From Candidatus Levybacteria bacterium RIFCSPHIGHO2_01_FULL_41_15 (lineage in GTDB: Bacteria; Patescibacteriota; Microgenomatia; Levybacterales; UBA12049): a stretch of 64,000 bases of DNA. The translations under genes and the position numbers were made by a program. This document shows, piece after piece, positions 17,532 through 50,560 of this stretch. The notes below the pieces were generated by a model that worked only from the letters and a program-made list of their open reading frames with translations, ran no database searches and was not told where the DNA came from. Location: contig MFNV01000006.1 of the NCBI GenBank assembly GCA_001782165.1, positions 444 through 64,443 of the forward strand. The letters run 5' to 3'. Positions within the stretch are counted from its first letter, which is position 1; each line of letters opens with the position of its first letter.

Positions 17532-18236
17532 TTATTTAGGCTCTGCGAAGACTAATAAACGCTTCCAGGTCGTCCCGGGCGGCCAGCAGGTTTGAAGAAT
17601 TAAAACCTCTTTTCCGGTATTGCTTTTGGTTATAAAAGAAACATCCTCCGCATCAACCACTCTTGATTCGGTAACTACATAATTATGTCTTTGGTTTTCA
17701 AAGAAGATTGTCACATCATCCCCCTGTTCTAGATCTTTTAAGAGATAAAAAATTGCATTATACCGTCCCACATCCCAAAAGTTATCTGTGGAATGGGCAA
17801 AAAGATAAATGTTTCCCGCAAGTCCTGGGAAGAATGTCCCTTTCGCATGAGCGACTCCTTTTTGAAGGAAGGGCAGAAATTCTTTCTGATTTACCGGATC
17901 CGCATTCGCAAATACCTTAGCGCTTGCGCCAAGCTTGGGTATCAAAATACTAAAATTTGTATCTTTAGGTATCAAGATTTGTTCTTTTGGGCCTGTCAAA
18001 AGAGCGCCAAGCCTTCCGCCTGCCTGCGCCTCTTTGGATTTTCGCAAAAGTTCCCCAAACGGAGTTTCCTTATCGGCAACTGTGTAACTTATACCTCTTA
18101 TTTGAGTAATTTTAAAATAAATTTCATAATAGAGTGAAGGACCAAAAGTTGCCAAGACTCCAAAAATTGCAAAAAGAAGTAAAAAATTCCCAATTGTACG
18201 CAGGATCAAAAAGCGGATAATTTCATCCTTGCTCAT
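17532..18236 (-). CDS. Sortase family transpeptidase
   Basis: N-terminal TM, His LFAHS, catalytic LILQTCWPPGT (TLxTC), Arg near the C-terminus. Confidence 0.75.
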   Translation of the reverse strand: MSKDEIIRFLILRTIGNFLLLFAIFGVLATFGPSLYYEIYFKITQIRGISYTVADKETPFGELLRKSKEAQAGGRLGALLTGPKEQILIPKDTNFSILIPKLGASAKVFANADPVNQKEFLPFLQKGVAHAKGTFFPGLAGNIYLFAHSTDNFWDVGRYNAIFYLLKDLEQGDDVTIFFENQRHNYVVTESRVVDAEDVSFITKSNTGKEVLILQTCWPPGTTWKRLLVFAEPK

Positions 18237-18257: not shown

Positions 18258-18436
18258 CGCTCCCGAGAGGAGTCGAACCTCCAATCTTTCCCTCCTGCTC
18301 GCCGAAACTTTGCGCCGCTGGAGAGAGTCGAACTCTCAGTCTTACCCTTAGGACGGGTCTGCTTTATCCTTTAAGCTACAACGGCCTGTGCAGGCGCGGT
18401 AGGACGGGACTGCTCTATCCATTGAGCTACGAGAGC
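18258..18436 (-). tRNA. Interrupted tRNA-Arg(CCT)-like gene: 5' half at 18436..18399, 3' half at 18292..18258, 106-nt insert at the canonical 37/38 position containing a complete tRNA
   Basis: Halves pair with each other: acceptor GCTCTCG/CGGGAGC, D GCTC/GAGC, anticodon stem GTCCC/GGGAA loop GTCCTAC, T GGAGG-TTCGACT-CCTCT. Confidence 0.45.
18313..18385 (-). tRNA. tRNA-Arg (anticodon CCT), 73 nt, CCA not encoded
   Basis: Acceptor GCCGTTG/CAGCGGC (one G-U), D GCTT/AAGC, anticodon stem GACCC/GGGTA loop GTCCTAA, T GAGAG-TTCGACT-CTCTC. Confidence 0.7.
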
Positions 18437-18454: not shown

Positions 18455-19021
18455 CTACTTAAGCGACTTAAGTCTATCATTTAACCTTCGTTTAAACAAG
18501 TTTTCCGAAAACCCACCCTCCTTAATAAATTTTTCCTCAAGAGCCTTAATTTGTCTATTTAAAAGGAAGGTCGCTTGATGACATAGAGTCAAAAGAAAAT
18601 TTGCCGCCTCTTGAGGATTCTCTGGCAAAATTGGTTTCTCTTTTAAGTTACCTAAGTCACTTAAGTTACTTAATGAGGTCAAACGAAAACTATTTTTCCT
18701 AAACTCCGCTATTCTTCTGTCTGTCTTTAACCAAATCTCCAATTTTCTTTGCCTTAAAAAATCTTCATAATCAGCTAGTAATTCTTCTAAAGATGCCATT
18801 GAAACACCAAGCAATTTAATTTCACCCTTTTTAGAAGTCTGACTCTGGCCCACTCCTTCAATAATATTCTGTTTCCCCGATCTTGCGGCTTGAATCATTT
18901 GCTCCCGATTGCGGCGGTTATCAAATCCATATAAAAACTTATTGCAAAATACAACAGTTAAATCATGGATTATTTCGCAGTATCGATAAGTTAAGAGATA
19001 TTTATATTTGGGCAGTGGCAT
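18455..19021 (-). CDS. Four-helix-bundle protein (the family often found in 23S rRNA intervening sequences or next to tRNA genes), with an in-frame ACTTAAGT-repeat insertion
   Basis: YLLTYRYCEIIHDLTVVFCNKF...QMIQAARSGKQNIIEGVGQSQTSKKGEIKLLGVSMASLEELLADYEDFL matches the family pattern; low-complexity LTSLSNLSDLGNL is encoded by repeats at 18640..18678. Confidence 0.55.
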   Translation of the reverse strand: MPLPKYKYLLTYRYCEIIHDLTVVFCNKFLYGFDNRRNREQMIQAARSGKQNIIEGVGQSQTSKKGEIKLLGVSMASLEELLADYEDFLRQRKLEIWLKTDRRIAEFRKNSFRLTSLSNLSDLGNLKEKPILPENPQEAANFLLTLCHQATFLLNRQIKALEEKFIKEGGFSENLFKRRLNDRLKSLK

Positions 19022-19065
19022 TATTTGTATTTTATCAGCAAGAAAGCTAAAATACTAATGAAAAG

Positions 19066-19140
19066 CGGAGACTAGTTCATCGGTAGAACGCTCGGTTCGG
19101 GACCGAGAGGTAGAGGGTTCAATTCCCTCGTCTCCGACCA
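19066..19140 (+). tRNA. tRNA-Pro (anticodon CGG), CCA encoded
   Basis: Acceptor CGGAGAC/GTCTCCG, anticodon stem CTCGG/CCGAG loop TTCGGGA, T GAGGG-TTCAATT-CCCTC. Confidence 0.8.
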
Positions 19141-26857: not shown

Positions 26858-27719
26858 GCTTGATACCGAATGACTCTCCGTCTGATACCACCTCTATATC
26901 TCCCGACAGATCTGTTCTTAAAGTCTTTATATGGAAATTTTTTAAAAGGCTTAAGGTAAAGGGGCTTGGATGTCCGTATCTGTTTTTCTTGCCAGCGGAT
27001 ATTACAGCCAGCTTTGGTTCAAGAGATGATAAAATTTTATCATTTAAACCTGTTTTTGACCCATGATGAGGAACTTCCAAGACATCTGTCTCCCCAGCTT
27101 CTGTCCCAAGAGCTTGGACAAGCCCCTCTGTTTGACTGTCTCCTGTAAAAAGAACACTGAAGCTTCCGAACCTAAGAAGAACGATGAGGGATCCAAATTC
27201 CCCGCTTTCTTGAATATTTCGGCCAGGGCTTGTCTTGTCTAGATATTCATAACTTGGTCCTAGAATCAAAAGACTTGTTCCATCTTTTAACTTAAAAGAG
27301 TCTCCCGAAAAAACATATATAATTTTCAAATTTCTACTTCTGATATTATCCATAAGCGCCTGGAAACTTACACTTTTATTGCTTAGGTCTTCAGTGACAA
27401 AAGATAACAAACTATATCTTTTTATTACAAAATTGAGTCCTGCAAAGTGATCAAGATGAGGATGTGTCAAAAACGCTGCCGAAATAGTTTTATCCCAAAA
27501 AGGCATGTGCCTTTCAAGACATTTTATGATCTTATCATCCGGACCTGCGTCAATTAAGAAGTTCTTCCGACCTGGCGTTCTTATGAAGACCCCATTCCCC
27601 TGTCCTACATTGCAGAATATGACATGAAGTTTGCCGTCATTGTATTTTGCATTTTCAAATACCGCAAAGCCGCCAAAAAAAAGAATTAGAAAAGAGAAGA
27701 TTAGTACGGTCTTTTTCAT
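26850..27719 (-). CDS. ComEC/Rec2 C-terminal metallo-beta-lactamase domain protein (separate ORF)
   Basis: HPHLDHFAGL motif; signal/TM at the N-terminus; start overlaps the upstream comEC membrane-domain ORF by 4 nt. Confidence 0.7.
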   Translation of the reverse strand: MKKTVLIFSFLILFFGGFAVFENAKYNDGKLHVIFCNVGQGNGVFIRTPGRKNFLIDAGPDDKIIKCLERHMPFWDKTISAAFLTHPHLDHFAGLNFVIKRYSLLSFVTEDLSNKSVSFQALMDNIRSRNLKIIYVFSGDSFKLKDGTSLLILGPSYEYLDKTSPGRNIQESGEFGSLIVLLRFGSFSVLFTGDSQTEGLVQALGTEAGETDVLEVPHHGSKTGLNDKILSSLEPKLAVISAGKKNRYGHPSPFTLSLLKNFHIKTLRTDLSGDIEVVSDGESFGIKPN

Positions 27720-28945
27720 AATTTATTTTTAAACTTTAAAACAAGTGAGACAAGAATGAGATAATATCCTGCCGCAAACTGCCAAGGGAAATCTTCGATT
27801 TCCAGAGATCCCCCTAAATCCGAAAAGAGGGAGACAATTTTGTCGAAATAAAAAATTAGAGGAAAGGCAAGAAGAATCACCGCTTTACCTGCCAATTCCC
27901 AAAATATACCCAAGGATCCTCCCACTGCGCCGATGACCATAAGAATAGGGACAGTCCAGAGCACCAATGCATTTACAAAGACTGACCAAATCGAATAGGT
28001 TCCGAAATTTGCAATAAGAATGGGAAGAGTGGCGGCTTGGGCAGACAAAGTTATTATCAGATCTTCTCCTATTAAAGTTATGTTCAAAGCTTTTTTTATT
28101 GTGTCTGAGAAAAAGAAAAACGGTCTTATGGATAAAAGCCCAAAAGTTGCTGCGAAAGAAAGCTGAAAACCTATATCAAATATCGTCAATGGATTTATGA
28201 AAATCATTAAGTATCCCGCGACCATGAGGGCATAAAAAGAAAGTCTTTGTCTGCCCAAAATTTGAGCAGACAAAGCAAGTATTCCCATAATTGTCGCTCT
28301 TACTATTGATGCTTCAAACCCAGACAAAACTGCATAAAAGAGAACCCCCGAAACTGTAAGAAAAAGGGCAATCTGCCTCTTTAAGAAGAACGAGAATACT
28401 CCTCCTATAAACCCGCCGAAAAGTGTTATATTCATTCCCGAAGCCGCAATTACATGCAAGACTCCCGCAATTCTTAAATTGTCCAAAAATTCCGAAGACA
28501 TATTCCTCCTTATTCCAAAAGCAATGCCCAAAAGCAAGGACGAATAATCCGAAGGCAATGTTCTCTCAAATAGGTATATTAATTTTTGCCGCAATACTGA
28601 TATAAATTTAAAAATAGAATTCTCATCTTCTATCTTTTGTATTTTCGGAAAAGACAAAATAAAAATCTCATTTTTATTTAGCACTCCGACTTTTAATTTG
28701 CCAGAAACTCTTATTCGATCTTGATAATTAAATTCAGGATGAGGTGAAGTTATTATTAAAATTCTGTTCAAATCTAAATTAGCAGATACTATTTGCCGAC
28801 TGCCAGATATTTTGGGCTGTGATTTGATCTGGGTTACAAAATTAACTTCTTCTCCGTCCTTTAAATCTTGTCTATTTTGATACTCCAAAAATGCTCGGAT
28901 TCCAAGAACGAGAATAAGAACCAAAAAGACAGAGGCAATTCTCAT
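27716..28945 (-). CDS. comEC: ComEC/Rec2 DNA-uptake channel, membrane (competence) domain
   Basis: N-terminal OB/DUF4131-like region plus polytopic membrane domain typical of ComEC. Confidence 0.7.
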   Translation of the reverse strand: MRIASVFLVLILVLGIRAFLEYQNRQDLKDGEEVNFVTQIKSQPKISGSRQIVSANLDLNRILIITSPHPEFNYQDRIRVSGKLKVGVLNKNEIFILSFPKIQKIEDENSIFKFISVLRQKLIYLFERTLPSDYSSLLLGIAFGIRRNMSSEFLDNLRIAGVLHVIAASGMNITLFGGFIGGVFSFFLKRQIALFLTVSGVLFYAVLSGFEASIVRATIMGILALSAQILGRQRLSFYALMVAGYLMIFINPLTIFDIGFQLSFAATFGLLSIRPFFFFSDTIKKALNITLIGEDLIITLSAQAATLPILIANFGTYSIWSVFVNALVLWTVPILMVIGAVGGSLGIFWELAGKAVILLAFPLIFYFDKIVSLFSDLGGSLEIEDFPWQFAAGYYLILVSLVLKFKNKL

Positions 28946-29574
28946 TAATAAATCGTAATTTTATCTTTTATTTTATCGAAGACCGAGCTGCCCACTATTT
29001 TTTTTGAAAGCAGATCATCTATGGTCTGGTAAGGCCTCCCTTGTATTATTTTTGATGCCGTAGCAGGCCCTATTCCAGACAAAGTATCTAATTCTTTATC
29101 AGATGCAGTATTTATGTTTATTAAGCCTCCTGATTGAATACTGGCTCCTCCCTGAACTTGGGAAGAGGTAAATGTTTCCCCTTCAAACGGTATATAAATT
29201 TTTATTCCGTCCGTAACTTTTAAAGCAAGATTTAGATTCTTGGCTACCCAATTTCTATCTGCACCTGAAGAAAGACCTCTGGCTGCTACCAGTACGTCTT
29301 TTACCCTTGATTCCTTGGGCAAATTATAAACTCCGGGAGAAACAACCGCTCCTTCTATATCTACTACGATCTGGCTATCTTTTTTATTACCTGAATTCAC
29401 TTCCGATGATTGGCTTGCTTTCTCAAATGCAATATCATTTGAGTTTGATGATGAAACTAATAACCCTATCACACCATATCCTAAAAGTATCACTCCCAAA
29501 AAACCCAAAATTAGCGGCAAGAGGTTCTGTCGGATAAGAGGAACTAAAGAGTCACTAAGGTTTTTATAATCCAT
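28945..29574 (-). CDS. comEA: ComEA DNA-binding competence protein (SLBB + tandem helix-hairpin-helix)
   Basis: ININTASDKELDTLSGIGPATASKIIQGRPYQTIDDL HhH motif. Confidence 0.75.
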   Translation of the reverse strand: MDYKNLSDSLVPLIRQNLLPLILGFLGVILLGYGVIGLLVSSSNSNDIAFEKASQSSEVNSGNKKDSQIVVDIEGAVVSPGVYNLPKESRVKDVLVAARGLSSGADRNWVAKNLNLALKVTDGIKIYIPFEGETFTSSQVQGGASIQSGGLININTASDKELDTLSGIGPATASKIIQGRPYQTIDDLLSKKIVGSSVFDKIKDKITIY

Positions 29575-32125
29575 TGTCTAAAACGAAGTTTATTACCTTC
29601 CCTTTGATATAAACAATGTCTTTGATCTTCCTTTTGTTTAAGTATTTTTGCACCCTTTGACTTTTCCTGGCAGTTTCCTCTATTTTCTGCTGATCATTAA
29701 TATGGGCTGAGTCAACCCTTAAAACATCCCGGGTTTTACCATTTATCTGAACGGCGATAGCAAAAATTTTTTCTGCCAAATATTCTTCTTTAAAACTGGG
29801 CCATGAGGCTTTATGAATAGAATCTTGGAAATTTAAAGCATGCCATAACTCCTCTGAAAAGTGCGGAGCAAAAGGACAAATCAAAAGAAGAAAAGTTTTA
29901 ACTTCATCTTTTGATATATTTTGTTCCTTTGACAAAAAATTATAATATTCCATAAGCGAAGCTATCGCAGTATTGTATTTAAGATTATCGATATCTTCTG
30001 TGACTTTTTTTATTGTTCTATGAAGCTTTGAGAGAGACTTGACTGAAACACTTTTATCTGAAATTTTGGTTAGACAAAGAACCCAAGCTCTTTTTAAAAA
30101 TCTGAAACACCCCTCAACGCTTTCCTCACTCCAGAGAACAGTTTGGTCAAAAGGTCCCATGAACATCTCGTAAATTCTCAAGGTATCTGCCCCAAATTTA
30201 TTGATTATTTCATCAGGATTAATGATATTTCCAAAGGACTTACTCATTTTTCTGCCGTCTCTCCCTAAGACAATCCCGTGTGAGCGTCTCTTTGCATATG
30301 GCTCAGGATTCGGCACTACACCAATGTCAAATAAAAATTTGTAGACAAACCGCGAATACAAAAGATGCAAGGTGGTATGTTCAAATCCGCCTTGATAGAT
30401 ATCAACCGGCATCCAATAATCCATTTTTTTCTTATCGGCAAGAGCCGAATCATTGCCAGGATCTAGATAGCGTAGAAAATACCAGTTTGAACCAGCCCAG
30501 TTTGGCATAGTATCTGTTTCGCGTCGTGCTTTTCCGCCACATTCTGGGCATTTTACCTTGAGCCAATCTTTGGCAAGCGCCAGGGGAGATTCTCCCGTTC
30601 CTGTTGGCTCATATTCTTTAAGGAACGGAAGCTCAACCGGCAGATCTTTTTCAGGAACCGAAACAGCTCCACATTTTTTGCAGTGTACTATTGGAATTGG
30701 CTCTCCCCAATAGTGCTGTCTTGAGAAAACCCAATCGCGGAGATGATAAACTGTAACTCTCTTACCCCAACCTTTTTCTTCAATATAATCCATTATCTTT
30801 TTTGTAGCCTCATGAATATCCAATCCATTGAGAAAATCCGAATTGATCATTGTTCCCTCTTCTTCTTGGACCTGAGAAGCTTTTGTGATTGGCGATCTAT
30901 CGCCATCTTTGCCAACAACCACACGGATTATTGGTAACTTAAAACTTCTAGCGAATTCGAAATCGCGAATATCATGACCAGGCACGCCAACAACTGCACC
31001 CGTCCCAACATTACCTAGAACAAAGTCACTCACCCATATTGGCATCTTTCTTTTGTTCAAGTCGTTAATCGCGTACGATCCCGTAAAAACTCCGGTTTTC
31101 TTCCTGCCTTCTGCGATTCTTTCAACCTCTGATTTTCTTACTGATGCATTAATATATTCTTTGACTACTTTTTTATGTTTTTCTTTTGTTATCTTAAGAA
31201 TAAGCGGGTGTTCAGGACCAACTACTATGAAAGTTGCGCCAAAATTAGTATCGGGCCTTGTCGTGAAGCACTCGATCTGATATTTACTATTTTCTATTTG
31301 ATATTTAATGTTGATTCCTTCTTTTTTTCCAATCCAATTTATCTGCTGTATGGCTATTTTTTGAGAGTAATCAACCAGTTTTAAATCTTCTAAAAGTCTA
31401 TCGGCGTATTTTGTAATCTTAAGAAGCCATTGTTTTTGCATTCGCTTTTGAGTTTTGGTGCCACAGCGTTCATGTGTTCCGTCTAATAAGACTTCTTCAT
31501 CCGCCAAATTAGTCTTACACGATGGACACCAGTTTACTGGAACATCTGCCTGATAAGTCAATCCCTTTTCAAAAAATTTTAAGAAGATCCACTGAGTCCA
31601 TTTGTAGTACTTAGGATCGGTCGTGTTTATTTCGCGGCTCCAGTCAAACGAAAGACCTAGGGATTTACACTGTTTCTTAAATCTTTCAATGTTTTTTGGG
31701 ACAATAGTAGAAGGGTGGACACGCATCTTCAAAGCGTAGTTTTCAGCAGGCAAACCAAAAGCATCCCAGCCAATTGGATAAAGCACATTCTTTCCTTCCA
31801 TTCTTTTCTTTCGGGAATACGCATCCATTGCAGACCATGAGCGGATATGTCCTACATGAAGACCTGAGCCTGAAGGATAGGGAAATTCGATCAAAACATA
31901 AAATTTCTGCCGCTTATCAAAATCTATGGCCCTATAAAGTCCCTCCTCCTCCCACCTCTTCTGCCATTTTGGCTCTATTAAACTTGGGTTATACTTCTGC
32001 TTGCCCCGCGAAGCCGCGTTTGACGCGGCGAAGTGGGGCCATTTGGGTTCAATTTCCGAAGGATTATATTTTGGAATCATGATTTTTACCTTTTCTTTTT
32101 TGTTTTTTGATTTTAAATTAGCCAT
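29564..32125 (-). CDS. leuS: Leucyl-tRNA synthetase, with N-terminal in-frame insertion/duplication
   Basis: HIGH region YPSGSGLHVGH; KMSKS; class-Ia editing domain; 853 aa. Confidence 0.9.
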   Translation of the reverse strand: MANLKSKNKKEKVKIMIPKYNPSEIEPKWPHFAASNAASRGKQKYNPSLIEPKWQKRWEEEGLYRAIDFDKRQKFYVLIEFPYPSGSGLHVGHIRSWSAMDAYSRKKRMEGKNVLYPIGWDAFGLPAENYALKMRVHPSTIVPKNIERFKKQCKSLGLSFDWSREINTTDPKYYKWTQWIFLKFFEKGLTYQADVPVNWCPSCKTNLADEEVLLDGTHERCGTKTQKRMQKQWLLKITKYADRLLEDLKLVDYSQKIAIQQINWIGKKEGINIKYQIENSKYQIECFTTRPDTNFGATFIVVGPEHPLILKITKEKHKKVVKEYINASVRKSEVERIAEGRKKTGVFTGSYAINDLNKRKMPIWVSDFVLGNVGTGAVVGVPGHDIRDFEFARSFKLPIIRVVVGKDGDRSPITKASQVQEEEGTMINSDFLNGLDIHEATKKIMDYIEEKGWGKRVTVYHLRDWVFSRQHYWGEPIPIVHCKKCGAVSVPEKDLPVELPFLKEYEPTGTGESPLALAKDWLKVKCPECGGKARRETDTMPNWAGSNWYFLRYLDPGNDSALADKKKMDYWMPVDIYQGGFEHTTLHLLYSRFVYKFLFDIGVVPNPEPYAKRRSHGIVLGRDGRKMSKSFGNIINPDEIINKFGADTLRIYEMFMGPFDQTVLWSEESVEGCFRFLKRAWVLCLTKISDKSVSVKSLSKLHRTIKKVTEDIDNLKYNTAIASLMEYYNFLSKEQNISKDEVKTFLLLICPFAPHFSEELWHALNFQDSIHKASWPSFKEEYLAEKIFAIAVQINGKTRDVLRVDSAHINDQQKIEETARKSQRVQKYLNKRKIKDIVYIKGKVINFVLDNGL
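32000..32038. repeat. RPE-like palindromic element inserted in-frame in leuS (encodes PHFAASNAASRGKQ)
   Basis: cttgccccgcgaagccgcgtttgacgcggcgaagtgggg; perfect stem GCCGCG/CGCGGC. Confidence 0.55.
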
Positions 32126-35969: not shown

Positions 35970-38900
35970 ATGGACTTTCTGAGTTTATTCAAATCCTTCC
36001 TAATTGAATCGGGTAAAGTATCTAAGGTTACTCTAAAAAATTATCTTTCTGATATAAGATTTTTCATATTTTGGTATGAGAGGTTTTACTCTCAGCCATT
36101 CTCTCCAACATCCATAGATTACTCTGTTGTACAAGCTTTTAAAAATTATCACTTCGACAGGATCGCCTTCTCGTCTCTTGATCGCAAACTTTCTGCTTTA
36201 AGAAAATTCTTTAGTTTTCTCAAAGAGAAAGGATTCATTGCTTCTGTTCCTTTTCAGGAGAAATCGAAAGAAGCAGAAGATAAGTTTTCACTTAAAGAAT
36301 TTAAGAATTTTCTATTCAGGCAAAACATTTCATCAGTTTCTTCCAAGAATTATCTGATTGACATAACTCAATTCCTAAACTGGGCGGATCAAGTAATCAA
36401 ACCCAGCGAACATTGGATAGTTTCTCAAAGAGATCTTTATTCAAGGATAGATAATGAACTCGTCAATGAGTATAAGAGAAGATTAATCGATCAGGGATTT
36501 TCTCCCCTTTCTGTAAACAGAAAGCTTTCTTCAATAAGAAAGCTCATTTTCTGGGCAATTAAAGAAGGGAAAATCAAAAAAAATAGATTTGATTTCATAA
36601 AAGAAAAAGGGCTTTTCCCCCTCAGCACAAAAGGGTCTACGTTGACCATTCAAGGAGGTTTTGCAGATTTTCTGACCCCTAAGATAGAAGAAAAGGCTAT
36701 GACCTATTCAAAGATTCCCCCAATCAGGGTAGCTCAGAAAATATTAGTTCTTTTTTCCTCAATCTATGATGATCTAATCATAGATCCCATCGCAGAATTC
36801 ATTAGCTTTTTGAACTTACTTCTTTTTAGGTTTGATAGAAAATCCATTTTCAAGTCAGATATCAAGAAAATCCCGCGAATTCAAGATCCAATAAAAATTT
36901 CAAATGTTGGCAAAAACTTTTATGCTCCGCTAAATATTTCTACAAAAGGGATGTCTTGGATCCGAAAAATATCGTATTCCATTCGATTTATACGACCAAA
37001 GTGGTATTTAAGATATCATAACTATGCAGTTGTCCATTACATACACTTCTCCATCCTTGTCATATTCATGACTGTTTTGGGTTTTGGGATTTATCAAAAG
37101 TTTTTCCTGCCAACAACAAATGTCCTTGGAGAGTCAATATTTTCCCTTTCCAGAATTCTTACGGTAAAACAGAGACTTACAGATTCTTTAGGAAATCCCA
37201 TCACCGAGAAAACTCTCATAAGATTCGCTATCTATGGGGATCCAGAAGCCTCAGGCTCAGCAATGCTTTGGGAAGATGTCAAAACAGTAGAACCCGATGA
37301 AAACGGCTTTTTCCAAACAAGCCTGGGGGAAAAAACTCCTATTCCCTCGAGCATCTTTTTCACTTATCCCTCCCTCTGGCTTGGAACAAGCATAGGCCAA
37401 ACATCCGAACTTAGACCCCGACAGCAGCTGACAAATGTTTCCCTAGCAACAAGCGCCCAGACTCTGAAGGGTCTGGGAATTAACTCACCCCTAAATTATA
37501 AAAATGTAATCCTGTCTCTTGATTCTTCAGGCAACCTGTCTCTTGGGGGACCATCTCATATTTTCCAGGCAATAAACGGGCAATTTGTTCTATCCGGAAA
37601 TATACTAACTCTTTCGACAATTTCGGGAACAAATACAAATATTGAAATTGTGCCTGATGGTTTGGGAAAAGTTGACATCCAAAAACCCATTCAAAATACC
37701 TCAAACAATAACAACATCCCAACTGCAATCGGAAGCGTTGAAATAGACGATCTTGTAAGTATACTGGCCACCTCAAGTGGTCAATCGGCCCTTACTATCA
37801 ATCAAAACGACTTAGGACCCATTATTAGCGCCTCTGCAAGCGGGATTGCCAAATTTACCATAGACAGCTTCGGGAATATGACTCTGTCAGGAGACATAAG
37901 TCTTTCGGGAAATAATGTAAATGTTTTTGCCACATCCCCTCAGTCAACCTTATCTATCGGCTCGGAAGACGGAGGCAATCTTATTCTCCAGCCTGTTTCA
38001 ACCGGTGAAATCCAATTTTTCTCCCCCTTAAATTTTTTATCTTCCGAGGGTACGCTTAAGCTTTCAGGGAATTTGATACTCTCAGGAACATCTTCACCCT
38101 CCTCCTCCTTTAGACTCTATGTGGAGGATTCTCAACCAAGTACCGCGGCTGCCCAAATATTCAATACAAGCGCAGGCTCAAAGGCAAGCGGACTTTTAAT
38201 AAAACTTGGAAACACTTCCGGCACAACAAATACAGATAATAAGTGGGTTACCTTTGAGCAGAGCGGGATCGGGATTGTGGGGATGATAAAAGGAAACGGA
38301 GAAAAAGGCGTAACTTTTCAGGGAAACGGGGTTTCTGATTTTGCTGAATATCTTAAAAAGGATGAGAATGAAAACATTCCCTTTGGCTCTCTGGTCTGCA
38401 TTGATGAAAAAGGTATGGTTACAGGATGTTCGTATAATAATCGGAATATTGTAGGGGTGGCGTCTGAAAATCCAACTTTCTTAGGAGGAGAGAACCTTGG
38501 GAATAAATCGATCCCGGTGGGCCTTGTGGGACAAGTTCCTGTTTTTGTATCAAACATAAACGGAGACATAAAACCAGGAGATCCTCTCACTTCATCTTTT
38601 ATAAAAGGTCTGGCCGCAAAGGCAAAAGACGAAGGAAGAATAGTAGGAAGAGCCCTTGAGAGCTTTGACTCCCTAAACTGTATCAATGAATCTTCGAATT
38701 TCGGTCTTGTTGAGAAAAGGATCTGCAAAGGAAAAATCCAGACTCTCTTGAACGTTTCGCATTATGAACCTTCTCCCTTAGACCAAGCCCAAAAAATCAA
38801 GGAACTTGTTCTTCAGGAAGTAGACAACGGTATCTTTGAGATAAAAGATTCACTGGGAATAGCAGTTGAAGAGATTCAGGCTTTTAACAAAAGTATAATC

Positions 38901-40088
38901 GGCACACTTGAAGCCGGAATAATCAATGCACGAAGGATTTCAGTTGAAACCCTAAATCTAAACGCACTATTTATAGAAGGGGAAAGTCTAAAAGACTATA
39001 TTGCTCAGATTATTCAAAACCAGCCTCAGATAAAATCCCCCATTGCAGAAATTGATGAGATAAAGACAAATATAATAAGCCCCCTTTCGCAGGAAAAAGA
39101 CATAAAGATAAAAATCGGAGAAACATCAAATCTTGCAGTTGAAAATCTTAAAGGACAAACAGTTTTTAATGTAGATAGTGAAGGAAACGCAACTTTGGCA
39201 GGAGAACTTTCTACCTCCTCTTTAAAAACAAATGAAATACAATCTGATAATGCCACTGTTAGTGGGGTTCTTCATGCAAAAAAAATCGTAACAGATGAGA
39301 TAGAAAATCAGAGTGAGAACAACTCTGTCTTTGCGAATATAGCATCATTTTCCTCTCAGCTTGTCTATGTTCAAAATCTAAAAGCGCAGACGGCTAATTT
39401 TACGGATGGACTCATAGCCTTAGGGCCTTCCTCTCTGATTGATACTGCAATATCGGGTCAGCTTTCGATTAATTCAAATTTAATTTTGGCAGAAAATTCT
39501 ATAAATGTCCTTGGTTCTGATCTTGAGATCCAGTCTGTAAGACAAGGCGGAGTTTCTCTTATGGGAGGTTTTGTTTATATAGATACAGATGGAAACCTAA
39601 AAGTCGGGGGAAATGCAGAGTTTGCAAAAGACATAACTGTAAAAGGAATAATATTTGCAAATATTATATCCCCTATTCCTGACAGTGATTTGATAGTTGA
39701 CATAAACGCAGAAAATAAATCTTTTATAATTAAAAACAAAGACAATCCTGTTGTTTCCGTAACGGGAGATGGAAATCTGACGGCATCGGGAAGTGGCACA
39801 TTTGGCAAACTGAATCTTTCTCTGATAAAACCTGCTCTTGCAGTTTCAGAAACCGAAGCAGTAGCAACCGGAGCTGCAGGAGTAGCCACAATTAGCGCTT
39901 ATCAAAAAGAACTGACAATCAAAAACAGTCTTATTACAAAAGACTCTCTGATATATGTAACTCCAAGAACTGATACAAAAAATATTGTAATTTACCTTTT
40001 AAGACAAGTGCCTGGAATATCATTTACTGTGGGAGTGAATACTCCCTCAGGATACAATATTCCGTTTAACTTTCTTATAATAAATTAG
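35970..40088 (+). CDS. Giant (1372 aa) membrane-anchored protein: three tandem phage-integrase N-terminal SAM-like (core-binding) domains, TM helices, huge extracellular Gly/Ser/Thr-rich fibre-like repeat domain
   Basis: Repeats VTLKNYLSDIRFFIFWYE, SSKNYLIDITQFLNWADQ, SVNRKLSSIRKLIFWAIKEG; TM HYIHFSILVIFMTVLGFGIY; remainder paralogous to the extracellular domain of the 1..1850 gene. Confidence 0.65.
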   Translation: MDFLSLFKSFLIESGKVSKVTLKNYLSDIRFFIFWYERFYSQPFSPTSIDYSVVQAFKNYHFDRIAFSSLDRKLSALRKFFSFLKEKGFIASVPFQEKSKEAEDKFSLKEFKNFLFRQNISSVSSKNYLIDITQFLNWADQVIKPSEHWIVSQRDLYSRIDNELVNEYKRRLIDQGFSPLSVNRKLSSIRKLIFWAIKEGKIKKNRFDFIKEKGLFPLSTKGSTLTIQGGFADFLTPKIEEKAMTYSKIPPIRVAQKILVLFSSIYDDLIIDPIAEFISFLNLLLFRFDRKSIFKSDIKKIPRIQDPIKISNVGKNFYAPLNISTKGMSWIRKISYSIRFIRPKWYLRYHNYAVVHYIHFSILVIFMTVLGFGIYQKFFLPTTNVLGESIFSLSRILTVKQRLTDSLGNPITEKTLIRFAIYGDPEASGSAMLWEDVKTVEPDENGFFQTSLGEKTPIPSSIFFTYPSLWLGTSIGQTSELRPRQQLTNVSLATSAQTLKGLGINSPLNYKNVILSLDSSGNLSLGGPSHIFQAINGQFVLSGNILTLSTISGTNTNIEIVPDGLGKVDIQKPIQNTSNNNNIPTAIGSVEIDDLVSILATSSGQSALTINQNDLGPIISASASGIAKFTIDSFGNMTLSGDISLSGNNVNVFATSPQSTLSIGSEDGGNLILQPVSTGEIQFFSPLNFLSSEGTLKLSGNLILSGTSSPSSSFRLYVEDSQPSTAAAQIFNTSAGSKASGLLIKLGNTSGTTNTDNKWVTFEQSGIGIVGMIKGNGEKGVTFQGNGVSDFAEYLKKDENENIPFGSLVCIDEKGMVTGCSYNNRNIVGVASENPTFLGGENLGNKSIPVGLVGQVPVFVSNINGDIKPGDPLTSSFIKGLAAKAKDEGRIVGRALESFDSLNCINESSNFGLVEKRICKGKIQTLLNVSHYEPSPLDQAQKIKELVLQEVDNGIFEIKDSLGIAVEEIQAFNKSIIGTLEAGIINARRISVETLNLNALFIEGESLKDYIAQIIQNQPQIKSPIAEIDEIKTNIISPLSQEKDIKIKIGETSNLAVENLKGQTVFNVDSEGNATLAGELSTSSLKTNEIQSDNATVSGVLHAKKIVTDEIENQSENNSVFANIASFSSQLVYVQNLKAQTANFTDGLIALGPSSLIDTAISGQLSINSNLILAENSINVLGSDLEIQSVRQGGVSLMGGFVYIDTDGNLKVGGNAEFAKDITVKGIIFANIISPIPDSDLIVDINAENKSFIIKNKDNPVVSVTGDGNLTASGSGTFGKLNLSLIKPALAVSETEAVATGAAGVATISAYQKELTIKNSLITKDSLIYVTPRTDTKNIVIYLLRQVPGISFTVGVNTPSGYNIPFNFLIIN

Positions 40089-47359: not shown

Positions 47360-49558
47360 TTACCCAACCGGCTTAGTATATTTTTCCCTTGAAACCCTTA
47401 CCACCTTTTCCCTGTTTTGAGTAACGCTCTTAGGAAGAGGAAGAGTCTGACACAGAAACGGCGACTGGGTAATTCCGTCAACGGCAAGTTTTATAACTGC
47501 TTGGAAATTCCCCAACAAAAGTAAATCTTCTGCCTTAAATCTCTCCCCAAATTCTTTCCCCACATAAGCTGAGTCTTGTGCGCCAATGAGAAACGACATC
47601 ATAGTTCCTACATTTCCGAAGATTGCCGCTCTTACATCTTCGGGAACTTGTGATATATATTGATTCGCAAGTATAAGGTTAAGTCGGTATTTTCGGGCTT
47701 CCGATAAAATCTTTATAAAACTTGTTGTTGCAAAATTCTGAAACTCATCAACATAAAGATAAAAATCCCTGCGTTCTGCCTCTGGCATCGAAACTCTGTT
47801 CATCGCCGCAAGCTGAATCTTGGTAATAGCCATTGCTCCCAAAAGCGCTGCATTATCCTCACCTATTCTTCCTTGCGACAGATTCAAAATTACAATTTTT
47901 CCTTCATTCATAATCTTTTCAAAATCAACTGTTGATTTGGGATTTTTAATAATATTTCGCATAAGGTGGGACGAAGTAAACTGTCCTACTTTGTTTAAGA
48001 TCGGTGAGATAGATTCACTCTTAAGCCTCGGCTGCATTTGCTCAAACTCATTAATCCAATAGTTTCTAAGAACCCTGTCTGTCATCTTCTCAACCACTCT
48101 GTGTCTGAAGTTATCATCCGTTAAGATATCCTGTACCATAAGAAGTGTCGCATCAGGCAGACTGATTACCGATAAAAGAGCGTTTCGCAGGATATATTCA
48201 AGTCTTGGTCCCCAAGTATGACCGTATAATTTATGAAAAATTGCAACAATCCCTGAGACCACGAGTTCTTTTTGTTCAGGGTTTTCAACAGACAATGGGT
48301 TTAGCGAAAAAGCATGTATCTTGTCCGAAGGATCAAGATAAACTACATCATTTACCCGGAAAGACGGGATGTAATTTAATAATATTTCGCAAAGATCACC
48401 GTGAGGATCGATTACGCAAATCCCTTTGCGGTTTCTGAAATCACTTATTGCCATATTTGCAATAAGTGTTGATTTTCCCGTCCCTGTTTTTCCGATGAGA
48501 TAAAAATGTTTTCGCCGGTCAGCAGATTTTATTCCGAAATTTGTAACTCTGTTTTTAAACTCGGTTTGCGCAAAAAAATTAGTTTCTGTTTTTTCCTGCG
48601 AAGTTAAATATTCGGCAACCGGAAGGTTTTCGGGAGGCTCGGAAAGTATAGTTTTATGCCATGAGATATTGTGAAGTGTTGCGAATTTGGATGTCGGAAA
48701 ATGGAAAAAACTTGCAATCTCCTCAACGTTTAATATCTGATTTGCCGGAACAAACCTTTTGTTTCTTTTAACAAGAGCGCTCATCATTCTTTTTTTCTGC
48801 CAAAGATAAGTCCGGCGAAGTTGAAAACTGTTACCGGAGGGGTTATTAAAAGATGAGAAACTATTTGCAATTTCATACAGGATCTGATGACTTCTCTCCC
48901 GATCTTGCGAAGAAACAGCAATTCTTATTGCCGTTTTGAAACCGTTGAGTTTTATCTTCTCAGAAATTACCTTGGCATAGGGGTTTTGTTGAACTACTCC
49001 TGCGGAATCCTTTTTCTTAGTATTAATTGTTCTCTCTCCTGTCCTTTGCCATCCCGAACCGATTGGTATTAGCAAAACCTGTATCCAGATTTTGTCCTCT
49101 TTTTTTGCTTTTGACAGAACCGAAACAAGAGAAGACATGGGATCAACATCCTTAAAATCGCGAAAAGTCCGAAGTGGGTAAAGATATCCGGACGATATTT
49201 TCATCTGACCAAAGGTCAAATTATTTCTGTTCGAAAGAATTTCAGAAAGAGGATCCCCGCGGGTCTTTAGAAAAAGAGCTTTAGGATACTGGGAAACAAG
49301 CTGGGATTCTATAAAAGTCGTTAGAGTTTGAGGGACTGATATATAAAAATGGATAGTTTGATCTATTACTCCAATCTCCAATGTAATGGGGATTGCAAAT
49401 GAAACAAGATTTAGAACTCTTTTCTTAAGAGAAACAAGACTCGAGAGGAACTGAACCATCGCCTCCGGACTTTCTTCCCCTGTCCTTGAAGTTTTAACCT
49501 CAAGAAGAATTCTGTCGGATTTATTTTCCATAGTCTTATTATACGACATATAAGTCAC
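47360..49558 (-). CDS. Type-IV-secretion coupling-protein-like P-loop ATPase (TraG/TraD/VirD4 family-like), no N-terminal TM
   Basis: Walker A FYLIGKTGTGKST followed by CVIDPHGDL; Walker B-like YLYVDEFQNF; 732 aa. Confidence 0.55.
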   Translation of the reverse strand: MTYMSYNKTMENKSDRILLEVKTSRTGEESPEAMVQFLSSLVSLKKRVLNLVSFAIPITLEIGVIDQTIHFYISVPQTLTTFIESQLVSQYPKALFLKTRGDPLSEILSNRNNLTFGQMKISSGYLYPLRTFRDFKDVDPMSSLVSVLSKAKKEDKIWIQVLLIPIGSGWQRTGERTINTKKKDSAGVVQQNPYAKVISEKIKLNGFKTAIRIAVSSQDRERSHQILYEIANSFSSFNNPSGNSFQLRRTYLWQKKRMMSALVKRNKRFVPANQILNVEEIASFFHFPTSKFATLHNISWHKTILSEPPENLPVAEYLTSQEKTETNFFAQTEFKNRVTNFGIKSADRRKHFYLIGKTGTGKSTLIANMAISDFRNRKGICVIDPHGDLCEILLNYIPSFRVNDVVYLDPSDKIHAFSLNPLSVENPEQKELVVSGIVAIFHKLYGHTWGPRLEYILRNALLSVISLPDATLLMVQDILTDDNFRHRVVEKMTDRVLRNYWINEFEQMQPRLKSESISPILNKVGQFTSSHLMRNIIKNPKSTVDFEKIMNEGKIVILNLSQGRIGEDNAALLGAMAITKIQLAAMNRVSMPEAERRDFYLYVDEFQNFATTSFIKILSEARKYRLNLILANQYISQVPEDVRAAIFGNVGTMMSFLIGAQDSAYVGKEFGERFKAEDLLLLGNFQAVIKLAVDGITQSPFLCQTLPLPKSVTQNREKVVRVSREKYTKPVG

Positions 49559-49634
49559 TTAAGTCACTTAAGTCTTATTTCCCCTAAAAAGGCGAGCTTT
49601 TCAGCTTGACAAAGCCTATAATATTTGGTACAAT
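49550..49634 (+). promoter_or_regulatory. Module P2: (TAAGTCACT) repeats, cttatttcccc, consensus promoter TTGACA(49606..49611)-17-TACAAT(49629..49634), directed into the GC-rich island
   Basis: Homologous to P1 (cttgacaaRgcctataWtat); perfect 17-nt spacer. Confidence 0.5.
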
Positions 49635-49724
49635 CCGCAAGCTTTTTTAGCACACCCACCCAAATTGCGGGTTTGCTGTGGTAAACAGGCAGTGCTTTGG
49701 CAGAAATTGTCGCAAGATTATTTC

Positions 49725-49746
49725 TTTCAAAGAACGTTCTTTGAAA
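49725..49746 (+). promoter_or_regulatory. Perfect 10-bp inverted repeat TTTCAAAGAA-cg-TTCTTTGAAA between promoter P2 and the first island ORF; operator or 5'-UTR hairpin
   Basis: Read directly; 35 nt upstream of SD AAGGAGG at 49781. Confidence 0.45.
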
Positions 49747-49793
49747 AGGTATGCAGAAATAATTTTTTAAACCCTAAGTAAAGGAGGTGTTTC

Positions 49794-49958
49794 GTGTCAG
49801 CCACCGAAATAGGACTGCAGATTGCCATAGTACTGCTTGCCGGCATCTGGTTCCCTGTGATCCTTGCGCACTGGCGAAAGAGGCCTTTCGACGGCTTTGT
49901 TCTAGGACTGCTGGGCATAATGATAACTAGCATCCTTGAACTCTTGCTGTGGGCCTAG
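49794..49958 (+). CDS. Island ORF 1: 54-aa two-TM membrane peptide (GTG start, SD AAGGAGGTG)
   Basis: VSATEIGLQIAIVLLAGIWFPVILAHWRKRPFDGFVLGLLGIMITSILELLLWA. Confidence 0.45.
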   Translation: MSATEIGLQIAIVLLAGIWFPVILAHWRKRPFDGFVLGLLGIMITSILELLLWA

Positions 49959-50023
49959 CTTGACAACCGAATATAGCAATCGTTCTAGCCTTCGCGCAAG
50001 CGAGGAGACAAAGGAGGACTCAA

Positions 50024-50266
50024 ATGGGGAGCCTAATCGAGTTCTACTCAAGGCCCCTTGAGTGGGTTGCAAAAGTACCCCACTCAATTCACAGTCGTCC
50101 TAGCGACGATAGCGGTTGGGGGTCAGCTTGTTATGCTAGCCCTGCTGATCAAGGCCGCCATCGACTGGATCTAGCCTCCGCGGAAGCGCGTGAAGAGATC
50201 CCTGAAAGGAGGCGATGTGAAATCGTTGATCGACGCTTACCTTCTGTTTGGCAGGCTTCTGTTTAA
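50024..50266 (+). CDS. Island ORF 2: 80-aa hydrophilic protein (SD AAAGGAGG 9 nt upstream); an alternative overlapping SD+GTG ORF at 50217..50294 (25 aa)
   Basis: SD then ATG; coding status of the two overlapping frames is unresolved. Confidence 0.3.
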   Translation: MGSLIEFYSRPLEWVAKVPHSIHSRPSDDSGWGSACYASPADQGRHRLDLASAEAREEIPERRRCEIVDRRLPSVWQASV

Positions 50267-50401
50267 ACGCAGATGGCCAACCAGGCGAAGGTAAATCCAC
50301 CCAGCGCTTGTGTTCGCTCAAGTCAAGCTTCAGAAATCGCGTCTAACGCGACAAAGAGGCTGACAAGATGCGCGCACAAGCTAGCTTCAAAAGGAGGTTC
50401 C

Positions 50402-50560
50402 GTGGCTCGAAGCGAGAGAAAGAAGCGCAAACAACAGAGTAACGGAAGCGGCAAGCTGAAGCGCAGGCCAGAACCACCACCCGATGAAAAGCCCCCAGAC
50501 GAGGAGAAATCCCCTCTTTCTAGCTCAAGTAGCACAAGTAAAGGAGGCAGTCGGATGTGA
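50402..50560 (+). CDS. Island ORF 3: 52-aa basic/acidic low-complexity peptide (SD AAGGAGG at 50391 then GTG; the longer ATG form starts at 50273)
   Basis: VARSERKKRKQQSNGSGKLKRRPEPPPDEKPPDEEKSPLSSSSSTSKGGSRM; stop TGA overlaps the next GTG (GTGA). Confidence 0.35.
   Translation: MARSERKKRKQQSNGSGKLKRRPEPPPDEKPPDEEKSPLSSSSSTSKGGSRM

What the first reader, a model, noticed from the sequence alone, without database searches (positions are those of the whole stretch)
18258..18436. Complete tRNA-Arg(CCT) nested inside the anticodon-loop interruption of a second tRNA-Arg(CCT)-like gene
On the minus strand, a canonical 73-nt tRNA-Arg(CCT) (18313..18385) is flanked by the two halves of another tRNA: the 5' half GCTCTCG-TA-GCTC-AATGGATA-GAGC-A-GTCCC-GTCCTAC (18436..18399) and the 3' half GGGAA-AGATT-GGAGG-TTCGACT-CCTCT-CGGGAGC-G (18292..18258). 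The outer halves pair with each other, not with the inner tRNA. Relative to the inner copy they carry compensatory changes in all four stems: acceptor GCTCTCG/CGGGAGC vs GCCGTTG/CAGCGGC; D GCTC/GAGC vs GCTT/AAGC; anticodon stem 28-42 U-A vs A-U; T GGAGG/CCTCT vs GAGAG/CTCTC. So both look selected to fold. The 106-nt interruption sits exactly at the canonical 37/38 intron position. Possible explanations: an intron-containing tRNA whose intron carries a second tRNA (processed by RNase P/Z, then ligated); a split tRNA; or a paralogue destroyed by an insertion. None is routine for bacteria.
Basis: seen in the sequence. Interest (0 to 1): 0.85.

Follow-up and report, generated by a model that had tools for sequence, protein, structure and literature searches.

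The report
Replacement tRNA inserted inside tRNA gene
A 106-base mobile cassette carrying its own complete arginine tRNA has landed in the anticodon loop of the resident arginine tRNA gene of a Levybacteria (Patescibacteria) genome, and it belongs to an apparently undescribed family of small elements that break a tRNA gene and supply its replacement.

Summary
On the minus strand, 18436..18258 reads: outer tRNA-Arg(CCT) nt 1-37, a 106-nt insert holding a complete tRNA-Arg(CCT), then outer nt 38-76.

The outer gene is the ancestral resident gene. The nearest relatives carry it uninterrupted at the same locus, 96-97% identical. The insert is therefore recent and derived.

The insert is not a one-off. 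I found 13 distinct elements in Levybacteria and related metagenomic contigs. Eleven share near-invariant ends, 5' CC(G)CGCCTGCAC and 3' GTTTCGGCGGGCAGG; L016 and L063 have variant ends. They carry Arg(CCT), Pro(CGG), Val(CAC) or Leu(CAG). Each sits in a D-loop or anticodon loop of a tRNA gene for the same amino acid, in the same orientation, with no target duplication.

Once the elements are removed, 4 of 12 outer genes are intact, 2 have acceptor mismatches, and 6 are dead, chimeric or riddled with further insertions. No BHB motif or group I core is present.

Best reading: a self-compensating DNA insertion. The inner tRNA is the working gene and the outer halves are a fresh relic, not a spliced gene. 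How the element moves is unknown. Other Levybacteria carry an HTH plus LAGLIDADG-fold ORF cassette at the same 37/38 junction.

I found no prior description in the paper library I could search.

The parts
18400..18436 (-). Outer (resident) tRNA-Arg(CCT), nucleotides 1-37: acceptor 5' strand, D arm, anticodon stem 5' strand and loop up to A37.
   Evidence: nhmmer E=4e-9. Identical to the 5' part of the intact tRNA-Arg of L006 and L008.
18386..18399 (-). Element 5' terminus, CCGCGCCTGCACAG. The CGCCTGCAC core is invariant across the family.
   Evidence: Flank alignment A4.
18313..18385 (-). Inner (cargo) tRNA-Arg(CCT), 73 nt. It starts with the family-typical GCCG and is presumed to be the working gene.
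   Evidence: ARAGORN. Rfam RF00005, 56 bits. Its nearest relatives are other element-borne tRNAs: L041 84%, L104 81%.
18294..18312 (-). Element 3' terminus, CAAAGTTTCGGCGAGCAGG. The family consensus is GTTTCGGCGGGCAGG; the window copy has one G-to-A change.
18258..18293 (-). Outer tRNA-Arg(CCT), nucleotides 38-76: A38, anticodon stem 3' strand, variable loop, T arm, acceptor 3' strand. It has G68 where relatives have A68, giving a U5-G68 wobble.
   Evidence: nhmmer E=3e-4.
18455..19021 (-). Context: 188-aa four-helix-bundle protein gene (TIGR02436 plus suffix domain TIGR04258). It ends 19 nt upstream of the outer tRNA. It is a variable cassette gene, found in the same place in several other Levybacteria.
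19022..19041 (-). Context (inferred): promoter-like TTGCTGATAAAATACAAATA. It resembles the TGTGCTAAAATACAA that directly precedes tRNA-Arg in relatives. It probably drives the ORF plus nested tRNA transcript.
   Evidence: Sequences. Inference only: the consensus scan did not list this site.
17532..18236 (-). Context: sortase gene starting 22 nt downstream of the outer tRNA. I used it as the synteny anchor to fetch 80 related loci.
19066..19140 (+). Context: tRNA-Pro(CGG), the usual neighbour of tRNA-Arg(CCT) in Levybacteria. In other genomes it is itself a target of the same element family.

Best explanation
The resident single tRNA-Arg(CCT) gene of this Levybacteria genome was hit, recently, by a 106-bp non-coding cassette that inserted exactly between A37 and A38. 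The cassette consists of conserved ends, 5' CCGCGCCTGCAC.. and 3' ..GTTTCGGCG(G/A)GCAGG, around a complete and different tRNA-Arg(CCT).

Shown:
- The outer gene is ancestral and the insert is derived.
- The insert belongs to a family with near-invariant termini.
- Family members lie in loops of tRNA genes for the same amino acid, co-oriented with the host gene and without target-site duplication.
- Outer halves decay in older copies.

Inferred:
- The locus is transcribed as one RNA from the upstream promoter.
- RNase P and the 3' processing enzymes release the inner tRNA, which now does the decoding.
- The outer halves are by-products and a young pseudogene.
- The cargo matches the target because an insertion into a single-copy essential tRNA gene survives only if it brings a replacement. 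This makes it a self-compensating insertion.
- Spread is at the DNA level. The use of three different sites (D-loop 21/22, 36/37, 37/38) and four tRNA identities points to real transposition or site-directed insertion into loop-coding DNA. Homologous recombination through the conserved tRNA halves could add to the spread; ComEA and ComEC are encoded in the window.

The enzyme that moves the element has not been identified.
For: 1. Outer gene is ancestral. Intact, uninterrupted copies sit at the syntenic position in L006, L008 and L112 (sortase 79-86% identical). They are 96-97% identical to the joined outer.
2. It is a family. A metagenome scan plus the related loci gave 13 distinct elements: the window, L041, L085, L088, L091, L093, L097, L104, L101, L106, L110, L016 and L063. 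CGCCTGCAC, GCCG and GTTTCGGCG.GCA are invariant in the 11 aligned elements.
3. Cargo matches target. The cargo decodes the same amino acid as the host gene and is co-oriented in all 13. The anticodon is identical in 10 of the 11 readable cases; L088 has AAC in the outer against CAC in the inner.
4. Element-borne Arg tRNAs are each other's nearest relatives, not relatives of the local resident genes.
5. No target duplication. The empty site is GTCCTA|AGGGAA; the filled site is GTCCTA|CCGCG..GCAGG|AGGGAA.
6. Outer genes decay. After removing the elements, 4 fold perfectly (window, L097, L085, L088). Two have two acceptor mismatches each (L104, L016). Five are not tRNAs at all (L093, L106, L101, L110 chimeric Pro/Arg, L063 missing nt 22-37). 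The L041 outer is riddled with extra insertions.
7. The window's outer carries one unique change, A68 to G, which weakens pair 5-68.
8. There is no intron machinery signature.
Against: - No transposase, recombinase or nuclease gene is linked to the elements, so mobility is inferred from distribution alone.
- The window's outer gene is still a perfect cloverleaf. Three other outers are also intact, one of them (L088) despite a second insertion. RNA-level excision of the youngest copies therefore cannot be excluded without RNA data.
- The strong conservation of the termini is unexplained. It could reflect an RNA processing role as well as a DNA recognition role.
- Only 64 kb of the genome is visible, so I cannot show that the inner tRNA is the only tRNA-Arg(CCT) in the genome.
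- The census is small (13 elements). It is also biased by a search pattern that required a tRNA T-loop between the termini.
Confidence: 0.72

Rival explanations
1. A genuine RNA-level intron. The 106-nt insert is removed from the outer pre-tRNA, for example by RNase P and RNase Z releasing the inner tRNA. The outer halves are then ligated, so both tRNAs are functional.
For: The outer halves in the window form a perfect cloverleaf. The outers of L097, L085 and L088 are also intact, L088 despite two insertions. The insertions sit in loops, at the canonical 37/38 site among others. The termini are strongly conserved, as a processing signal would be.
Against: There is no BHB motif: the intron's 3' end is constant while the anticodon varies. 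There is no group I core: 33 nt outside the tRNA and no Rfam hit. RNase P and RNase Z cuts would leave 14-nt and 19-nt tails, not the exon ends. Eight of 12 outers are mismatched, chimeric, truncated or dead. An intron that splices cleanly has no need to carry a tRNA for the same amino acid, yet all 13 do. No RtcB or EndA is encoded in the 64-kb window, which is weak evidence.
Confidence: 0.1
2. Not a dedicated mobile element but a repair scar. A homing endonuclease cut the tRNA-Arg(CCT) gene at 37/38, and the break was patched by copying an ectopic or foreign tRNA-Arg segment.
For: Thirteen of 80 Levybacteria loci carry an HTH plus LAGLIDADG-fold ORF cassette immediately upstream of tRNA-Arg(CCT). 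In several, a displaced tRNA-Arg 5' half ends exactly at nt 37. L110 has a 5' half (nt 1-37), then 17 nt, then a full tRNA, with no ORF. So 37/38 is a recurrent breakpoint.
Against: The near-invariant termini recur around four different cargo tRNAs and at D-loop and 36/37 sites as well. Random repair patches would not produce that. The HEG-like cassettes have different junction sequences (G(A)TTGACAA..) and do not retain the 3' half. No HEG-like ORF is present in the window.
Confidence: 0.13
3. A split or nicked outer tRNA that works without ligation. After the inner tRNA is released, the two outer halves stay base-paired and function in trans.
For: The halves have 7 + 5 + further complementary pairs and would remain associated.
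Against: A break with long tails at 37/38, next to the anticodon, is incompatible with decoding according to established tRNA and ribosome structural knowledge. Outer halves decay in other family members. The redundant inner tRNA removes any need for the outer one.
Confidence: 0.03
4. An assembly artefact, or a chance resemblance of the flanking sequences to tRNA halves.
For: None found.
Against: The identical 219-nt region occurs in four assemblies from different samples and pipelines. The outer is 96-97% identical to intact tRNAs of relatives. Twelve further elements have the same architecture.
Confidence: 0.01

Closest known systems
Integrative genetic elements that target tRNA genes and restore them with their own copy of the displaced tRNA segment (integrase-mediated; my own knowledge, e.g. 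Williams 2002 NAR)
   Same: The insertion lands inside a tRNA gene, often in the anticodon-loop region. The element brings tRNA sequence so that a working tRNA gene remains. A displaced tRNA fragment is left behind.
   Different: The element here is only 106 bp. It has no integrase and no att direct repeats. It carries a whole independent tRNA rather than a matching fragment. Both halves of the old gene remain, flanking the new one.
Free-standing homing-endonuclease cassettes and intronless homing (e.g. phage T4 seg/mob genes; review PMC2988022)
   Same: A selfish insertion at a defined site in a conserved gene region, co-inherited with a cleavage-resistant replacement allele. Related Levybacteria have exactly such an ORF-plus-tRNA cassette at the same 37/38 junction.
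   Different: The window element has no ORF. Its conserved termini differ from the cassette junctions. It keeps the 3' half of the old gene.
Bacterial group I introns in tRNA anticodon loops, including those of Patescibacteria (PMC13011429)
   Same: The same phylum and the same kind of host gene, interrupted in the anticodon loop. Standard tRNA finders miss the outer gene.
   Different: Those introns average 257 nt, carry a ribozyme core and self-splice. That survey found them at every anticodon-loop position except 37/38. Here only 33 nt are not tRNA, and no ribozyme match was found.
Archaeal BHB introns, multi-intron tRNAs and split tRNAs (review PMC4090602; my own knowledge)
   Same: The canonical 37/38 position, additional D-loop and T-loop sites, and several insertions in one tRNA gene (L088, L041).
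   Different: The host is a bacterium. There is no bulge-helix-bulge motif and no visible EndA. The exons are not conserved across the family. The insert carries a tRNA for the same amino acid.
MITE- or REPIN-like GC-rich palindromic mini-elements, and intervening sequences in rRNA genes of Patescibacteria (my own knowledge)
   Same: Short, non-coding and GC-rich in an AT-rich genome. The ends are able to pair (CCCGCC/GGCGGG). Cargo-less versions of 30-43 nt exist, in L110, L018 and L072. The elements reside in structured-RNA genes.
   Different: No target-site duplication and no high copy number in the 64 kb. The element carries a functional gene as cargo. No cognate transposase has been identified.

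Membership tests
Archaeal/eukaryal-type (BHB) tRNA intron | Bulge-helix-bulge motif at the exon-intron junctions, with a central 4-bp helix involving nt 32-35 | tested here: not met
   The MFE fold shows a 4x3 internal loop, not 3-nt bulges separated by 4 bp. The intron 3' end ..GGGCAGG is constant while the anticodon is CCT, CAC or CGG, so the required pairing cannot form.
Archaeal/eukaryal-type (BHB) tRNA intron | Splicing endonuclease (EndA) and ligase (RtcB) encoded by the organism | not testable with these tools
   Only 64 kb of the genome is available. The precomputed Pfam hits on called genes across most of the window include neither.
Archaeal/eukaryal-type (BHB) tRNA intron | Exons maintained as a functional tRNA across homologous interrupted genes | tested here: not met
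   Eight of 12 outer genes are mismatched, chimeric, truncated or dead after the element is removed.
Bacterial group I intron in a tRNA gene | Group I ribozyme core (P3-P9), typically 200 nt or more | tested here: not met
   The insert is 106 nt, of which 73 are a tRNA. Rfam gives no hit other than tRNA, at the gathering threshold or at E<=10.
Bacterial group I intron in a tRNA gene | Insertion in the anticodon loop | tested here: met
   The insert lies between A37 and A38. PMC13011429 reports group I introns at all anticodon-loop positions except 37/38.
Split tRNA (Nanoarchaeum type) | Halves encoded at separate loci with complementary leader and trailer sequences that form a BHB for trans-splicing | tested here: not met
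   The halves lie 106 nt apart on one strand with no BHB.
Integrase-type integrative element in a tRNA gene | Tyrosine or serine recombinase gene within the element | tested here: not met
   The element is 106 bp with no ORF. No shared recombinase lies within 4 kb of the 13 elements.
Integrase-type integrative element in a tRNA gene | attL/attR direct repeats made of the duplicated tRNA segment | tested here: not met
   Comparison of empty and filled sites shows no duplication.
Integrase-type integrative element in a tRNA gene | A working tRNA gene is preserved after insertion | tested here: met
   The element supplies a complete cargo tRNA for the same amino acid.
MITE / non-autonomous transposon | Short, non-protein-coding, conserved termini with inverted-repeat character | tested here: inconclusive
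   The termini are near-invariant and contain CCCGCC/GGCGGG and CCTGC/GCAGG complements. However, the two repeats are in swapped order and only 5-6 bp long. In L016 the termini are inverted relative to the cargo.
MITE / non-autonomous transposon | Target-site duplication | tested here: not met
   None at the window site.
MITE / non-autonomous transposon | Cognate transposase and many copies per genome | not testable with these tools
   There is one copy in the 64 kb and no transposase among the genes the Pfam look-ups covered. The rest of the genome is not available.
Free-standing homing-endonuclease cassette | Endonuclease ORF adjacent to the replacement allele | tested here: not met
Free-standing homing-endonuclease cassette | Insertion junction coincides with the endonuclease target site | tested here: inconclusive
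   The window element, the ORF cassettes and L110 share the same nt 37/38 junction. The cleavage site of the protein itself is unknown.

The most novel reading that the evidence does not exclude
The conserved termini define a new class of bacterial mobile element. It recognises the loop-coding parts of tRNA genes, as folded single-stranded DNA or at the RNA level followed by reverse transcription. It obligatorily carries a tRNA for the same amino acid as cargo, so it replaces essential tRNA genes from the inside and drives horizontal turnover of tRNA genes in reduced Patescibacteria genomes. A still bolder variant: the termini are an RNA processing signal, and young copies are true protein-dependent bacterial tRNA introns that yield two tRNAs from one transcript.
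Probability: 0.3. Interest if true: 0.9.

Novelty: new variant of a known kind. Interest (0 to 1): 0.72.

Why it matters
Bacterial tRNA genes are thought to be interrupted only by group I introns or by large integrase-borne elements. This finding shows a third way: a roughly 105-bp ORF-less cassette that destroys a tRNA gene and replaces it in the same stroke.

If the family is as widespread in Patescibacteria as this first sample suggests, several things follow:
- It explains how single-copy, essential tRNA genes can be invaded at all.
- It provides a route for horizontal replacement of tRNA genes.
- It accounts for tRNA half-gene relics and for local rearrangements at tRNA loci.
- It warns annotators that such loci hold a live inner gene and a dead outer one.

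The conserved termini and the empty/filled site pairs make the insertion mechanism experimentally approachable. The element also puts a tRNA gene at the centre of a three-way contest with homing-endonuclease-like cassettes at the very same nucleotide.

Tried and rejected
- BHB intron: I folded the 179-nt unit and checked the geometry by hand. No motif is present.
- Group I or other ribozyme: Rfam at the gathering threshold and at E<=10 gave only tRNA.
- Assembly artefact: rejected, because identical sequence occurs in four assemblies.
- Linked mobility protein: all-against-all comparison of ORFs within 4 kb of the elements found only syntenic housekeeping genes.
- Phage origin: two scans of viral contigs gave only chance 15-mer matches and no element.
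- ARAGORN intron mode on the unmasked sequence reports nothing, because the inner tRNA wins. It calls the outer gene only after the inner tRNA is shuffled. A masked scan of all loci found no cargo-less interrupted tRNA.
- A second flank-like match in the window, near position 724, is a chance hit inside a coding region.
- L018 and L072, which hold mini elements, gave no Rfam family at those sites.
- Taxonomy of the Leu and Val loci by exact cluster look-up returned no names. Homologues of an L106 protein are Levybacteria or Patescibacteria. L085, L088, L091 and L101 remain unassigned.
- Literature searches for nested, disrupted or embedded tRNA in bacteria found nothing relevant.

Full report
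**Observation**

On the minus strand, 18436..18258 reads as follows:
- outer tRNA-Arg(CCT) nt 1-37: GCTCTCG TA GCTC AATGGATA GAGC A GTCCC GTCCTA
- a 106-nt insert
- outer nt 38-76: A GGGAA AGATT GGAGG TTCGACT CCTCT CGGGAGC G

The insert holds a complete 73-nt tRNA-Arg(CCT) at 18385..18313, called by ARAGORN and by Rfam at 56 bits. The joined halves fold as a cloverleaf. The whole 179-nt unit folds as one cloverleaf nested in another. With the inner tRNA shuffled, ARAGORN's intron mode calls an outer tRNA-Arg(CCT) with a 106-nt intron. The same 219-nt intergenic sequence is present in four separate assemblies from ENA and JGI samples, so it is not an assembly artefact.

**Organism and context**

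The neighbouring genes include sortase, a PEGA-domain protein, MreB, DsbA, VKOR and NDK, and further along ATP synthase, ComEA/ComEC, ArgRS and LeuRS. The named sortase homologues come from Candidatus Levybacteria and other Patescibacteria. The nested gene lies 19 nt after a 188-aa four-helix-bundle protein gene (TIGR02436 plus TIGR04258) and 22 nt before the sortase gene, all on one strand.

**The outer gene is the ancestral resident gene**

Using a sortase alignment, I fetched 80 species-level Levybacteria loci. Nearly all have a tRNA-Arg(CCT) just upstream of the sortase gene. The closest relatives are L112 (sortase 86% identical), L006 and L008 (74-79%). They carry an uninterrupted tRNA with the sequence GCTCTCG...GTCCTAAGGGAA...CGAGAGC. 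The joined outer gene of the window is 96-97% identical to these. Its only unique change is A68 to G, which turns pair U5-A68 into a wobble. Relatives have A at position 38, so the insert lies exactly between A37 and A38, with no target duplication. The insertion is therefore derived and recent, which by itself explains why the outer stems still pair.

**The insert belongs to a family**

The inner tRNA is not like the local resident genes. Its nearest relative is the tRNA of L041 (84%). In L041 the same short flanks surround the tRNA, but the unit sits in the D-loop of a different, heavily disrupted outer tRNA.

I scanned metagenome contigs for GCCTGCA..T-loop..GTTTCGGCG. This returned 27 stretches, of which 14 are tRNA-in-tRNA loci; several of those are duplicates of one another or of L041, and the rest are chance coding matches. 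Together with L016 and L063 from the genome set, there are 13 distinct elements:
- Arg(CCT) inside Arg(CCT): window, L093 and L104 at 37/38; L041 in the D-loop.
- Pro(CGG) inside Pro(CGG): L097, L110 and L016 at 36/37; L063 in the D-loop.
- Val(CAC) inside Val: L088 and L106 at 37/38; L101 in the D-loop.
- Leu(CAG) inside Leu(CAG): L085 and L091 in the D-loop.

In an alignment of 11 elements, CGCCTGCAC, GCCG and GTTTCGGCG.GCA are invariant. The inner tRNA usually begins with GCCG. When it does not (Pro), an extra GCCGAAAC precedes it and pairs with GTTTCGGC.

Cargo and host gene always decode the same amino acid and always point the same way. In L016 the termini are inverted relative to both tRNAs.

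Cargo-less 30-43-nt versions with the same ends (CCCGCC...GGCGGGC(A/G)GG) occur in L110, L018 and L072.

The Arg and Pro cases share Levybacteria synteny. A protein from the Val locus L106 has Levybacteria and Patescibacteria homologues. The other Leu and Val loci are AT-rich but remain unassigned.

**Is the outer gene spliced?**

- There is no BHB motif. The fold gives a 4x3 internal loop. The intron's 3' end is constant while the anticodon varies, so the central BHB helix cannot be maintained.
- There is no ribozyme. Only 33 nt are not tRNA, and Rfam finds nothing beyond tRNA. Group I introns of Patescibacteria tRNAs average 257 nt and were not found at 37/38 (PMC13011429).
- The outer genes do not hold up across the family once the elements are removed. 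Four are perfect cloverleaves: the window, L097, L085 and L088. L088 qualifies only after a second, roughly 94-nt T-loop insertion is also removed, and its anticodon is AAC. Two have two acceptor mismatches each (L104, L016). Five are not tRNAs: L093, L106, L101, L110 (a Pro 5' half joined to an Arg-like 3' half) and L063 (nt 22-37 missing).
- The L041 outer carries at least three further insertions and a damaged anticodon arm.

This graded decay, and above all the rule that the cargo always matches the gene it interrupts, fit a disrupting insertion that must bring its own replacement. They do not fit a cleanly spliced intron.

**How it most likely works**

Shown: the insertion, the family, the matching cargo, the co-orientation and the relic decay.

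Inferred: one transcript runs from the promoter-like sequence at 19041..19022 through the four-helix-bundle ORF and the nested gene. That sequence is similar to the TGTGCTAAAATACAA that precedes tRNA-Arg in relatives. RNase P and the 3' processing enzymes then release the inner tRNA, and the outer halves are discarded.

DNA-level mobility is inferred from four observations: the patchy distribution, the foreign origin of the cargo, the three insertion positions and the four tRNA identities. All sites lie in loop-coding DNA, which suggests recognition of folded single-stranded DNA or an RNA intermediate. No enzyme is linked to the elements, and none was found in viral contigs. ComEA and ComEC in the window make recombinational spread through the conserved tRNA halves plausible.

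**A contested site**

Thirteen of the 80 loci carry a roughly 210-aa ORF immediately 5' of tRNA-Arg(CCT). Five of them have a displaced tRNA-Arg 5' half upstream of it. Where that half is intact it ends exactly at nt 37 (L021, L035, L043); it is decayed in L016 and L022.

A homodimeric LAGLIDADG enzyme centred on the palindromic anticodon arm would be expected to nick the top strand after nt 37. That is my inference from the known 4-nt 3' overhangs of this family. Position 37/38 of this gene is thus a recurrent breakpoint. A break-repair origin for the window insert remains a minority rival, weakened by the conserved termini and the other insertion sites.

**Comparison and novelty**

In logic, the element works like integrative elements that restore the tRNA gene they split, and like free-standing homing cassettes that travel with a resistant allele. 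It fails the defining tests of both: no recombinase, no att repeats and no ORF. It also fails the tests for BHB introns, group I introns and split tRNAs. It resembles a MITE in size and in its conserved ends, but it has no target duplication and carries a functional gene.

I found no description of tRNA-in-tRNA elements in the searchable literature. I rate it a new variant of a known kind, a self-restoring insertion in a tRNA gene. There is a real chance that it represents a new class of element once its mechanism is known.

Noticed in passing
L005-L084, about 2280-2500 in each locus; L112 50-125: The tRNA-Arg(CCT) gene, together with its own promoter (TGTGCTAAAATACAA), points towards the sortase gene in some Levybacteria and away from it in close relatives. 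For example, L006 is + while L008 and L112 are -, with near-identical tRNA sequence. The module has inverted repeatedly at one locus.
   Followed up: partly
L021 1002-1770; L035 320-1092; L043 1707-2479; L016 1738-2494; L022 1735-2494 (13 loci in all): A cassette made of a displaced tRNA-Arg 5' half (nt 1-37), a TTGACA-type promoter, a roughly 210-aa HTH plus LAGLIDADG-fold ORF and a complete tRNA-Arg(CCT). In L022, L035 and L043 the ORF reads through the new tRNA's 5' half and stops at the TAA in its anticodon loop. The family has about 1300 members, all annotated as hypothetical.
   Followed up: partly
window 18455-19021 (-); also L072, L018, L070, L053, L063: A four-helix-bundle protein gene (the family known from 23S rRNA intervening sequences; TIGR02436 plus TIGR04258) sits between the promoter and tRNA-Arg(CCT) in several Levybacteria and is absent in close relatives. 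It behaves as another variable cassette at this spot. It is frameshifted in L053.
   Followed up: partly
L088 1323-1416; L101 (reverse strand) about 2437-2508; L041 1796-1815 and about 1944-1989: Other short insertions with inverted-repeat ends lie inside the already interrupted outer tRNAs. L088 has a roughly 94-nt insert in the T-loop (TCCCG..CGGGA). L101 has 72 nt at 53/54 (CCCTCC..GGAGGG). L041 has a 20-nt hairpin in the D-stem and 46 nt at 37/38.
   Followed up: no
L072 5096-5300: The first 11 codons of mreB are duplicated upstream of the real start. Between the two copies lie about 130 nt that include a 33-nt mini element, CCCGCC..GGCGGGCAGG. This is an insertion that re-supplies the disrupted gene start, the same logic as at the tRNA.
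   Followed up: no
L110 2415-2451 (-), 2504-2556, 2576-2760: One locus combines three things: a displaced Arg 5' half plus 17 nt plus a full tRNA-Arg; a cargo-less mini element inside a degraded Pro-like remnant; and a Pro-cargo element whose downstream half is Arg-like. This implies recombination between elements in neighbouring tRNA genes.
   Followed up: partly
window 48001-52000: GC content is 0.48 against about 0.38 elsewhere. The region sits next to a DUF87/TrwB-type ATPase gene (47360-49558, -) and several ORFs with no family. It may be an integrated foreign segment.
   Followed up: no
window 35970-40088 (+): A 1372-aa protein with two Phage_int_SAM_1 hits but no recognised integrase catalytic domain in the precomputed Pfam list.
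   Followed up: no
window about 27716-29575 (-): ComEC (Competence plus Lactamase_B domains) and ComEA-like (SLBB/HHH_3) genes. These are DNA-uptake machinery that could support recombinational spread of tRNA-gene alleles.
   Followed up: no
L018 525-680: A GC-rich, apparently structured stretch of about 150 nt containing a mini element (CCCGCC..GGCGGGCAGG). It has no Rfam match and could be an unrecognised or interrupted small RNA gene.
   Followed up: partly
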